DNA from: an uncultured Verrucomicrobiales bacterium
Lineage (GTDB): Bacteria; Verrucomicrobiota; Verrucomicrobiia; Verrucomicrobiales; DEV007
DNA: 64,000 nucleotides
Direction of reading: 5' to 3'
Assembly: GCA_937897075.1 (NCBI GenBank)
Contig: CALCPI010000268.1
Span: forward strand, 2,521 to 66,520
The notes beneath the pieces are model-generated. The model was not told the origin of the DNA. It saw only the letters and a program-made list of their open reading frames with translations, and ran no database searches. Shown here in pieces: positions 47,597 through 48,919 of the stretch (position 1 is its first letter; every line of letters starts with the position of its first letter). A program made the position numbers and the translations under genes.

Positions 47597-48919
47597 TTAC
47601 CTGTTGGCAACGACCCAGGATTTCAAAAGGTATCCCTTCTTGCCCTTTGATCGTCCAGTCTTCACTGCCACATAAACCCATTTGCCGTTCTGCTTGGTGA
47701 CCTTAACCACATCTCCTTGACTAAGATTGCCCTGAGCAGCTCCATTGTTTGCCGCCGTCTTGCGAAGCTTTGCATTTCTGGCTTTAACTTTCATCCAGCC
47801 CGGACCGCGCAATTTCGAAGATGCCGACTTCTGCACCTGCCTTGTCACCTGAGCCTGGCTCGCTGCGGCAAGTTGCGTGGCGGCAGCCTCAGCTTGCTGC
47901 GCCGCTTCAGCCTCCGCCTGCGTTGTTGCCGCTGCCGCCAGGGCAGCCTGTCTGTCAGCCTCTGCCTGGGCTGCAGCCGCCATCTGGCGATTCGCTTCCA
48001 ACTGTTGTGCCGCCGTCGCTTCTGCTGCGACGCGCTGTTGCTCTGACAGTGCCAACTGGGCGCGCAGGGCCGCAAGGTCGGCCGAATTATCAACTGGAGG
48101 AGGCTCGGCAACTAAGCCGGCAACCGGAAACTCGGTGAGGGAAATCCTTTTCGTTGGCAATTCATGCACGAACGTCTTTCTACCCAGATCCTTGAAAGCC
48201 GTCCAGGGGTAGGGAATAACGCTGCCAGTGGCCCTTTTCATGGCTGCCTGAAACTCCGCATCCGTCCTGTACAGATTTCCGCAGTCTACTACGATGCACA
48301 CAACACCGATAAACTGCCAAGCCTGCATGCCCGTTCCATATTTGATCATTCCGCCCGTATTGATCTCCTTACTAGTTGAAGTTCCCGTCGATGTGGTCTT
48401 GTTCCACGCCATTGACCCGGAAATGGTTTCACTCACCCCCATTCCCAAGGGTTGAGCGCAAATCTCAATTTCAAGTCCCACACTTTTTTCAAAGGAATTG
48501 GATTCCTCCGTCGATAACTGTGAGACAAATGCAGTCCCGAAGGCTTGATCTCTCTTCGATGCAAGTTCGTTCTGTGCCTCTCCCACGGCCACCCACTTTC
48601 CTGAGAGATAGTAATCCGCATCGACTTCCAAGAATTTACCGTAAGCATAATGGAAACGAATAAACTGAAGATCCGCAGTCATCCAGACAGCCCCAAGATC
48701 ATCGAGAGATAAATTGTATTTGTCCTTTTTCGGCGGTCTGCCGGGAACCTCAATCTCCGACATGCTGTGGTAGACGCCCTGGCGGGGAGTCCCTCGTTCG
48801 TTGATATTCGCTTCCTGGGCGCCCGCAGACGTGACGAACACTATGCTCGCTGCGCAAAGCAGCGGGAAGGTTTTACGATGTCCAACTAACGCGTTCTGTC
48901 TTGTCGTATGCAATCTCAT
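47597..48919 (-). CDS. Secreted putative aerolysin-fold (ETX/MTX2- or Bin-like) beta-pore-forming protein with an Ala/Gln stalk and C-terminal SH3b domain
   Basis: Signal peptide (AGA|QE). Amphipathic hairpin SFEKSVGLEIEICAQPLGMGVSETISGSMAW flanked by S/T-rich strands. Ala/Gln helix at aa 279-362. SH3b pattern V.A...LR.......G.L..GD.V.V....G.W..V......GY.....V. The CDS and SH3 are firm; the toxin call is tentative. Confidence 0.6.
   Translation of the reverse strand: MRLHTTRQNALVGHRKTFPLLCAASIVFVTSAGAQEANINERGTPRQGVYHSMSEIEVPGRPPKKDKYNLSLDDLGAVWMTADLQFIRFHYAYGKFLEVDADYYLSGKWVAVGEAQNELASKRDQAFGTAFVSQLSTEESNSFEKSVGLEIEICAQPLGMGVSETISGSMAWNKTTSTGTSTSKEINTGGMIKYGTGMQAWQFIGVVCIVVDCGNLYRTDAEFQAAMKRATGSVIPYPWTAFKDLGRKTFVHELPTKRISLTEFPVAGLVAEPPPVDNSADLAALRAQLALSEQQRVAAEATAAQQLEANRQMAAAAQAEADRQAALAAAATTQAEAEAAQQAEAAATQLAAASQAQVTRQVQKSASSKLRGPGWMKVKARNAKLRKTAANNGAAQGNLSQGDVVKVTKQNGKWVYVAVKTGRSKGKKGYLLKSWVVANR

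What the first reader, a model, noticed from the sequence alone, without database searches (positions are those of the whole stretch)
47597..48919. Secreted aerolysin-fold pore-former candidate with an Ala/Gln stalk and SH3b domain
Seen: after a signal peptide, aa ~102-212 read YYLSGKW...STEESNSFEKSVGLEIEICAQPLGMGVSETISGSMAWNKTTSTGTSTSKEIN...WQF. Alternate residues are hydrophobic on both arms of a hairpin (V147/L149/I151/I153/A155; M160/V162/I166/M170/W172), followed by a Ser/Thr-rich strand. An ~85-aa Ala/Gln helix and a very basic SH3b domain follow. Known: a hairpin plus S/T strand is the hallmark of aerolysin-type beta-PFTs; C. perfringens epsilon toxin, from memory, has [23 protein letters not shown]. 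Bacterial SH3b domains often bind cell walls. Inference: a targeted or tethered pore-forming toxin (anti-bacterial or anti-grazer). I know of no such architecture described in Verrucomicrobiota.
Basis: partly seen in the sequence, partly recalled or inferred. Interest (0 to 1): 0.82.

Follow-up and report, generated by a model that had tools for sequence, protein, structure and literature searches.

The report
Orphan aerolysin-type pore-former with SH3b anchor
[quoted passage not shown] Its back half is a long rigid helix ending in a positively charged cell-wall-binding SH3 domain, an arrangement not described for this toxin class in the literature searched.

Summary
The 440-aa ORF lies on the minus strand (47597-48919). 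It has a Sec signal peptide, an amphipathic hairpin (aa 147-172) followed by a Ser/Thr tract (aa 175-183), a ~90-aa Ala/Gln helix and a basic SH3b domain.

No Pfam or NCBIfam model hits the N-domain. Three lines still place it in the aerolysin superfamily:
- A profile-profile match to ETX/MTX2 aligns hairpin on hairpin (P 7e-5, score 40 against at most 24-26 in controls).
- Language-model features point to the same clan.

The family is tiny: six sequences in about 15 billion. It was found in 0 of 36 congeners and 0 of 400 other genomes of the same phylum.

Best reading: a secreted accessory beta-pore-forming protoxin whose C-terminal helix and SH3b (or polybasic tail) target or tether it. Pore activity, target and oligomer are untested. 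The link to the neighbouring zincin peptidase is not supported by co-occurrence. This is a new variant of a known kind, of moderate to high interest.

The parts
47597..48919 (-). Whole CDS, 440 aa plus stop (protein P0001)
   Evidence: The only long open frame here. The opposite strand has many stops. GC is 53.8% against 52.5% for the window.
48818..48919 (-). Sec (type I) signal peptide, aa 1-34, predicted cleavage AGA|QE
   Evidence: Read from the sequence. The homologues P0002 and P0003 have equivalent signal peptides ending just before the conserved Gln. It is not a lipobox: Leu sits at position -1 of C22, and the Cys is absent in the homologues.
48095..48817 (-). Aerolysin-type pore-forming module (PFM), aa 35-275, with no Pfam match
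48404..48481 (-). Amphipathic insertion hairpin (putative transmembrane hairpin), aa 147-172, tip Q156-P157 and invariant P-x-G-x-G
   Evidence: Alternating pattern with the highest beta hydrophobic moment in the domain. pLDDT is below 50, as expected for a mobile loop. The full-length model folds it as a hairpin, aa 147-155 and 162-170. hhalign places it on the ETX insertion loop (ETX loop residues 123-148 per PMC6572795).
48371..48397 (-). Ser/Thr-rich post-hairpin strand, aa 175-183
   Evidence: 8 of 10 residues are S/T. hhalign aligns it to the Thr/Asn-rich tract of ETX that ends in SKEI.
47813..48085 (-). Long Ala/Gln/Glu-rich helix, aa 279-369 (about 13 nm if fully helical)
   Evidence: One continuous helix in the full-length model, pLDDT 70-81. 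39% Ala, 18% Gln, pI 4.5. No heptad periodicity. 61-70% identical among the three close homologues; its low complexity inflates this figure.
47612..47776 (-). Basic SH3b (Pfam SH3_3) domain, aa 382-436
   Evidence: SH3_3 at 29.5 bits, E 8e-7, above the cut-off of 27 when scanned alone. 29.6 bits in the six-frame search. Atlas structural TM 0.79-0.83 to SH3_3, NlpC/P60-SH3 and other SH3b clusters. 18 K/R against 1 D/E.

Best explanation
The gene encodes a Sec-exported, probably further secreted, accessory beta-pore-forming protoxin of the aerolysin superfamily. It belongs to a sequence-orphan family.

Mechanism inferred from the family. The ~240-aa N-terminal module binds a target membrane and oligomerises into a ring. 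The hairpin aa 147-172 and its Ser/Thr-rich flanking strands peel off the five-stranded sheet and refold into a transmembrane beta-barrel. Apolar residues (V147, L149, I151, I153, L158, M160, V162, I166, M170) would face the lipid, and W172 and F143 would sit at the interface.

The C-terminal part is an accessory module: a flexible Pro-rich linker, a ~13-nm Ala/Gln helix and a polycationic SH3b domain. In the two close homologues the SH3b is replaced by a disordered Lys/Gly/Asn-rich tail. This module either aims the toxin at an anionic, peptidoglycan-type cell surface or keeps the protoxin tethered until a protease cuts the linker. The latter would be analogous to the C-terminal peptide of epsilon toxin or aerolysin.

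Shown here: the fold, the hairpin, the topology, the SH3b domain, rarity and accessory distribution. Inferred: oligomerisation, pore formation, the role of the C-terminal module, and the target.
For: (1) Profile-profile (hhalign). The six-member family (A2) against nine ETX/MTX2 proteins (A4) gives Prob 62%, P 7.4e-5 and score 40.3 over 86 columns. P0001 aa 125-215 aligns to ETX precursor 135-219, which is the ETX beta-hairpin domain plus the first cap strand (PMC6572795). Controls: column-shuffled 12.4 +/- 2.2 (max 19.8), block-shuffled 16.5 +/- 2.8 (max 24.1), reversed 25.9.

(2) AF2 model (pTM 0.62). It has five long antiparallel strands and a low-confidence loop between strands 2 and 3. 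That is the defining topology given in PMC9363482.

(3) Fold searches.
- VIA-align against 48,161 chains without Foldseek: 14 of the top 15 rows are aerolysin-fold. They are lamprey LIP 5.8, Tpp80Aa1 5.6, Cry78Aa 5.4, Cry35Ab1 5.4, BinA 5.3, pro-monalysin 5.1, 2d42 5.0, Tpp49 4.8, Bombina ALP 4.7, Cry23 4.4, parasporin-2 3.9, aerolysin prepore 3.8 and Cry51 3.6. Unrelated rows score at most 3.4.
- Foldseek PDB: the top 14 are the same clan, with probability up to 0.89. The alpha-hemolysin, leukocidin and gasdermin pores score probability 0.04 or less.
- AFDB clusters: E 1.9e-4 to 1e-3 for Toxin_10 and monalysin-type clusters.
- Atlas: TM 0.44-0.48 to Toxin_10/Vps62 clusters.

(4) Language-model features of P0001 aa 35-275 and of the 22%-identical P0004 both land on monalysin, Aerolysin and ETX_MTX2 clusters (0.94-0.95).

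(5) Signal peptide. The genome has 11 secretin-domain loci, so export across the outer membrane is feasible.

(6) Accessory distribution: 0 of 36 congeneric species, 0 of 24 other genomes of the order, 0 of 400 of the phylum. Genomic context is not conserved among homologues. This is typical of toxins and unlike envelope housekeeping genes.

(7) C-terminal add-ons vary across the family: SH3b, a polybasic tail, an unannotated ~190-aa extension in P0005, or none. The aerolysin superfamily likewise swaps binding modules.

(8) Precedent. Monalysin had no BLAST homologues beyond two uncharacterised P. putida orthologues. It was recognised from amphipathic patches flanked by Ser/Thr-rich sequence, then shown to form pores (PMC3182943).
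Against: - No Pfam or NCBIfam model (ETX_MTX2, Aerolysin, BB_PF, Toxin_10) hits any family member, even at E 10.
- The model rests on only six sequences. The hairpin itself has pLDDT below 50.
- E164 and G168 interrupt the apolar face of arm 2.
- Some aerolysin-fold proteins are not known to be lytic, for example the 26-kDa non-toxic crystal protein 2d42 and Vps62-like proteins.
- In a diderm producer, an SH3b domain could equally bind the producer's own periplasmic peptidoglycan.
- Oligomer modelling and expression data were not available.
Confidence: 0.68

Rival explanations
1. The protein has the aerolysin-type fold but is not a toxin. It would be a secreted or surface protein that uses the beta-sandwich for binding or adhesion, or as a non-lytic structural module. 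The SH3b would serve as a cell-wall anchor.
Against: The hairpin keeps the alternating apolar pattern, an invariant P-x-G-x-G tip and Ser/Thr flanks across homologues only 20-24% identical. This points to selection on the insertion element itself. Beta-PFTs that act on foreign membranes need no immunity gene.
Confidence: 0.14
2. The protein is an envelope device of the producer. After Sec export it stays in the periplasm. The SH3b binds the cell's own peptidoglycan, the ~13-nm helix spans the periplasm, and the N-module oligomerises and inserts its hairpins into the outer membrane from inside. It would form a wall-tethered channel or an outer-membrane-to-wall tether.
For: The producer is a diderm, so a Sec signal alone delivers the protein to the periplasm, where the peptidoglycan lies. 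The helix length is of periplasmic scale. There are weak TolA-like matches over the helix (E 0.2). Earlier, unchecked notes on this window report other exported proteins with polycationic tails.
Against: The gene was found in none of 36 congeners or the rest of the order, which is unlike a core envelope part. In the closest homologues the SH3b is replaced by a disordered Lys-rich tail. No aerolysin-fold outer-membrane channel is known (my own knowledge).
Confidence: 0.08
3. The resemblance is spurious. This would be an unrelated beta-rich secreted protein whose strand-turn-strand and Ser/Thr composition mimic the motif, with AlphaFold2 drawn to a common elongated sheet by a shallow alignment.
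Against: Three partly independent methods (profile-profile, structure search with two aligners and three libraries, language-model features) converge on one superfamily among tens of thousands of alternatives. Shuffled and reversed controls score far lower. The hairpin plus S/T combination occurs in only 5 of 8524 ORFs.
Confidence: 0.1

Closest known systems
Monalysin (Pseudomonas entomophila; PDB 4MJT/4MKO; Pfam BB_PF PF18063)
   Different: The BB_PF model does not hit this protein. Monalysin is cleaved at its N-terminus and forms an 18-mer pro-form. It has no C-terminal helix or SH3b.
Toxin_10 / Tpp pesticidal proteins (Tpp80Aa1 8BAD, Cry78Aa 7Y78/7Y79, Cry35Ab1 4JP0, BinA/BinB 5FOY)
   Different: Their binding domain is an N-terminal beta-trefoil lectin. 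Here the accessory part is C-terminal: a long helix plus SH3b. There is no sequence-level match. They come from Bacillota and form crystals.
Epsilon toxin / ETX_MTX2 family (PF03318)
   Same: The only sequence-level link found. The profile-profile alignment covers the whole hairpin domain (P 7.4e-5), including the Thr-rich strand ending in SKEI. ETX is a secreted protoxin whose C-terminal peptide must be removed before it forms heptamers (PMC6572795).
   Different: The Pfam model does not hit this protein. The receptor-binding domain differs. ETX's C-terminal peptide is short, whereas here about 165 residues follow the module.
Aerolysin (Aeromonas; PF01117 + APT domain)
   Different: Aerolysin is much larger and has an N-terminal lectin-like APT domain. 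There is no HMM match.
SH3b cell-wall-binding domains of peptidoglycan hydrolases (lysostaphin, phage endolysins such as PlyP35, NlpC/P60 enzymes)
   Same: A C-terminal SH3_3-type domain used as a targeting module. Structural TM about 0.8 to NlpC/P60-SH3 clusters. Weak sequence match to the PlyP35 binding domain (E 0.9).
   Different: Here the domain is fused to a pore-forming module through a 90-residue helix, not to a hydrolase. Its ligand is unknown.

Membership tests
Aerolysin-type beta-PFT superfamily (fold level) | Core of about five long, twisted antiparallel beta-strands in an elongated molecule (PMC9363482) | tested here: met
Aerolysin-type beta-PFT superfamily (fold level) | Membrane-spanning or insertion region located between core strands 2 and 3 | tested here: met
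   The low-confidence segment aa 134-183, which contains the hairpin, lies between the second and third long strands. hhalign maps it onto the ETX insertion loop.
Aerolysin-type beta-PFT superfamily (fold level) | Insertion region with alternating hydrophobic and hydrophilic residues | tested here: met
   aa 147-155 and 158-172 alternate, with E164 and G168 as exceptions. The pattern is fully alternating in P0004-P0006.
Aerolysin-type beta-PFT superfamily (fold level) | Ser/Thr-rich module, especially around the insertion region | tested here: met
   31.7% S+T in aa 131-190 and 8/10 in aa 175-184. The whole module is 14.9%, lower than the 20.5% quoted for Cry78Aa (PMC9363482).
Aerolysin-type beta-PFT superfamily (function level) | Ring oligomer (heptamer or nonamer) with a concentric double beta-barrel | not testable with these tools
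Aerolysin-type beta-PFT superfamily (function level) | Permeabilises membranes | not testable with these tools
   This needs liposome, bilayer or cell assays.
Pfam ETX_MTX2 (PF03318), Aerolysin (PF01117), BB_PF (PF18063), Toxin_10 (PF05431) | Score above the family's gathering threshold | tested here: not met
   No hit at E up to 10 for P0001 or any of the six family members. Six-frame searches of the genome were negative. The only sequence link is a profile-profile one. So this is a separate family within the superfamily.
Bacterial SH3 domain (Pfam SH3_3, PF08239) | Score above the gathering threshold (27 bits) and an SH3 fold | tested here: met
   29.5 bits, E 8e-7, for aa 360-440 alone. 24.1 bits on the whole protein. 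Atlas structure TM 0.79-0.83 to SH3_3 clusters.
Coiled coil | Heptad (3.5-residue) hydrophobic periodicity | tested here: not met
   No power at period 3.5 in any of the three homologues, and few strong apolar a/d residues. It is a long Ala-rich helix, and its oligomeric state is unknown.
Bacterial gasdermin / alpha-hemolysin-leukocidin pore-formers | Fold similarity | tested here: not met
   Foldseek probability 0.04 or less for the gasdermin, gamma-hemolysin, leukocidin and beta-toxin pores. The protein also has a signal peptide, unlike the cytosolic gasdermins.

The most novel reading that the evidence does not exclude
This would be a wall-anchored aerolysin-type pore-former. The SH3b domain (or the polybasic tail in homologues) binds peptidoglycan or another anionic envelope polymer, and the 13-nm helix acts as a spacer. 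There are two versions. In the first, the toxin is aimed at other bacteria, making it the first antibacterial aerolysin-family toxin. In the second, it is stored on or in the producer's own envelope as a protoxin and is released and activated by proteases when a grazer digests the cell.
Probability: 0.25. Interest if true: 0.8.

Novelty: new variant of a known kind. Interest (0 to 1): 0.57.

Why it matters
Aerolysin-type pore-formers are known mainly as toxins of pathogens, insecticidal Bacillus proteins and animal immune factors. They are aimed by lectin-like domains at eukaryotic membranes.

This one differs in three ways:
- It comes from an environmental Verrucomicrobium, a phylum in which ETX/MTX2-type genes were not found in 401 genomes.
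- It belongs to a family invisible to Pfam and NCBIfam, the two domain libraries scanned here.
- It replaces the lectin with a long helix plus a peptidoglycan-type SH3b anchor or a polybasic tail.

If active, it would widen the known targeting logic of the superfamily, possibly to bacterial envelopes or to self-tethered anti-grazer defence. It would also add a compact new scaffold for nanopore work. Finally, it shows that hairpin plus Ser/Thr motifs, combined with fold prediction, can recover toxin families that sequence models miss.

Tried and rejected
**Searches that found nothing**
- Sequence homology to solved structures: only Ala-rich helix noise, plus C. perfringens enterotoxin at E 1.6 on the hairpin.
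- tblastn of the hairpin region against plasmids: nothing relevant.
- More family members: two word-index searches with profiles, one exhaustive HMMER search, genome contigs and two metagenome scans. Only P0002-P0006 turned up.

**Weak result, later superseded**
- hhalign against the single ETX sequence: correct register but probability only 2.6%. The family profile replaced it.

**Readings tested and not supported**
- A dedicated activator role for the divergent HExxH protein. Its homologues occur in 7 of 40 congeners; five of those seven were among the 36 congeners with no pore-former gene. The P0003 locus has no relative of it. Proteolytic activation in general remains plausible.
- Conserved operon: none.
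- Classical coiled coil: no heptad signal.
- Lipoprotein: rejected. The residue before C22 is Leu, and the Cys is absent in the homologues.
- Gasdermin and leukocidin folds: rejected.
- Recent transfer judged from composition: the gene's GC (53.8%) matches the window (52.5%), so there is no signal.

**Not available**
- No model coordinates reach the Python box, so Cys-Cys distances could not be measured.

Full report
**1. What is there**

The finding's coordinates bound a real ORF, but it is on the minus strand (47597-48919, 440 aa). It stands alone. It converges with a DUF1552 gene and diverges from a secreted HExxH protein. Typical PVC-type genes (PSD/PSCyt, DUF1552) lie upstream and a TPR membrane protein downstream.

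The protein has five parts:
- A type I signal peptide, aa 1-34, with AGA|QE.
- An acidic N-domain, aa 35-275, pI 5.3.
- A Pro-rich linker.
- An Ala/Gln/Glu-rich segment, aa 276-365 (39% Ala, 18% Gln).
- A strongly basic C-terminus, aa 366-440 (18 K/R against 1 D/E, pI 11.6).

**2. Checking the observation**

Two positions on the supposedly apolar face of arm 2, E164 and G168, are not apolar. In the distant homologues that face is fully apolar. The tip motif P-x-G-x-G is invariant in all six family members. A tract with 8 of 10 Ser/Thr follows the hairpin.

In this genome an alternating hairpin of this quality is common on its own (1778 of 8524 ORFs). Together with such a Ser/Thr tract it occurs in only 5 ORFs. 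The motif combination is therefore unusual, but not proof by itself.

The SH3b call is sound. SH3_3 scores 29.5 bits (E 8e-7) when the tail is scanned alone, and the Atlas model superposes on SH3_3 families at TM of about 0.8. The whole-protein score of 24.1 bits falls below the cut-off, probably because of the low-complexity helix.

**3. Homologues**

The family is extraordinarily small. Searches of a 5.8-billion-cluster index, an exhaustive HMMER pass over 1.84 billion representatives, GTDB species genomes and JGI metagenomes gave the following:
- Two close relatives, P0002 and P0003, at 52-55% identity.
- Three distant ones, P0004-P0006, at 20-24% identity and sharing mainly the hairpin region.

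The close relatives keep the signal peptide, the module and the Ala-rich helix. They end in a disordered Lys/Gly/Asn-rich tail instead of an SH3b domain. P0004 and P0006 are the bare module. P0005 carries an unannotated extension of about 190 aa.

None of 36 other species of the same genus, 24 other genomes of the order, or 400 sampled genomes of the phylum has the gene. Gene neighbourhoods of the homologues share nothing. This is an accessory, patchily distributed, stand-alone gene.

**4. What the N-domain is**

No Pfam or NCBIfam model hits it or any relative, even at E 10. Three other lines converge.

(a) Profile-profile comparison. I built an ETX/MTX2 alignment from epsilon toxin and eight annotated plasmid-borne family members. 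hhalign of the orphan family against it gives P 7.4e-5 and score 40.3 over 86 columns. P0001 aa 125-215 is placed on ETX precursor residues 135-219. That span is the pre-insertion strand, the insertion hairpin, the Ser/Thr strand and the first cap strand, according to the ETX pore paper (PMC6572795). Column-shuffled, block-shuffled and reversed controls score 12, 16 and 26.

(b) Structure. AlphaFold2 on the six-sequence alignment gives pTM 0.62. The model has five long strands, and the hairpin segment is a low-confidence excursion between strands 2 and 3. This is the topology used to define aerolysin-type pore-forming modules (PMC9363482). In the full-length run the excursion folds as a beta-hairpin, aa 147-155 and 162-170.
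- Foldseek against the PDB agrees (top 14, probability up to 0.89). It scores alpha-hemolysin, leukocidin and gasdermin pores at 0.04 or less.
- AFDB clusters (E 2e-4 to 1e-3) and the ESM Atlas (TM 0.44-0.48) point to Toxin_10/Vps62 and monalysin-type clusters.

(c) Language-model features. Both P0001 aa 35-275 and the distant P0004 have monalysin, Aerolysin and ETX_MTX2 clusters as their nearest neighbours (0.94-0.95).

**5. How it most likely works**

By analogy with solved members (PMC6572795, PMC9363482, PMC3182943), the steps would be:
- The protein is exported by Sec. It is probably released across the outer membrane, since the genome has 11 secretin loci.
- The module binds a membrane and forms a ring.
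- The hairpin domain unfolds into a long beta-barrel whose tip, aa 147-172, spans the bilayer.

The C-terminal 165 residues are the unusual part. The model gives a single helix of 91 residues (about 13 nm; inference from 0.15 nm per residue) with no heptad periodicity, followed by SH3b.

Homologues swap SH3b for a polybasic tail, so the conserved property is a distal polycationic binder on a rigid spacer. I infer one of two roles. It may target or tether the protein to an anionic, peptidoglycan-like surface. It may instead be a removable pro-region, like the C-terminal peptides of ETX and aerolysin. The data cannot decide whether the victim is a bacterium or a grazer.

**6. The neighbouring peptidase**

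Metalloprotease activation has precedent: AprA for monalysin (PMC3182943) and lambda-toxin for ETX (cited in PMC6572795). However, homologues of this peptidase occur in 7 of 40 congeners. Five of the seven were among the 36 congeners in which the pore-former gene was not found. The P0003 locus has no relative of it. Co-occurrence therefore does not support a dedicated pair, although it could still cleave the protein.

**7. Rivals**

- Non-lytic protein with an aerolysin fold (0.14).
- Envelope-resident, wall-tethered outer-membrane device of the producer (0.08). Its absence from all congeners argues against this.
- Spurious resemblance (0.10).

**8. Novelty and score**

The pore-forming module is a known kind. 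New here are a sequence-orphan family within it, its occurrence in Verrucomicrobiota, and a C-terminal helix plus SH3b or polybasic architecture. I found no description of that architecture: no paper in the library holds both 'aerolysin-like' and 'SH3b'.

I class it as a new variant of a known kind and score interest at about 0.57. It is worth an expression and liposome test. It is not categorically new.

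Noticed in passing
window 49134-50147 (+): A secreted 337-aa protein with an HEAAH (HExxH) motif and no Pfam match, 214 bp head to head with the pore-former gene. Homologues (29-50% identity, several with in-frame stops) occur in 7 of 40 congeners. At least five of those genomes lack the pore-former gene, so the pairing is not conserved.
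   Followed up: partly
window 47597-48919, aa 154, 208 and 213: P0001 has a Cys (C154) inside hairpin arm 1, plus C208 and C213 in the core strand. D212-C213 is invariant in the three close homologues, whose second Cys sits elsewhere (after the helix at about aa 231). A disulphide that latches the hairpin to the core is conceivable.
   Followed up: no
L004:109-4428: In the MAG that carries P0003 (65% GC), the homologue sits directly downstream of an ECF-type sigma factor and a 1181-aa Ser/Thr kinase with WD40 repeats. This context is unlike the window's.
   Followed up: no
P0004 (280 aa, Logan contigs): This distant family member has no signal peptide as called, and it is the bare module. Either its start is mis-called or it is exported by another route.
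   Followed up: no
P0005 aa 300-493 (L007:3017-4498): This distant family member carries a C-terminal extension of about 190 aa with no Pfam match. It may be another accessory or binding domain, which would fit a family that swaps modules.
   Followed up: partly
G000 contigs C177, C290, C374, C570: Four other ORFs in the genome also show the 'amphipathic hairpin plus Ser/Thr tract' pattern. One of them is a giant ORF of 8515 aa on C570. None was examined.
   Followed up: no
G000, 11 loci (e.g. C507:3371-3880, C247:6064-6573): The genome has eleven secretin-domain (PF00263) matches, an unusually large set of outer-membrane secretion or pilus channels.
   Followed up: no
window 42901-47440 (+): A PSCyt/PSD (DUF1592/1588/1585/1587/1595) haem-c protein with an NPCBM-like insert, followed by a DUF1552 protein. 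This is the widespread PVC gene pair of unknown function. It lies immediately upstream, converging on the pore-former gene.
   Followed up: no
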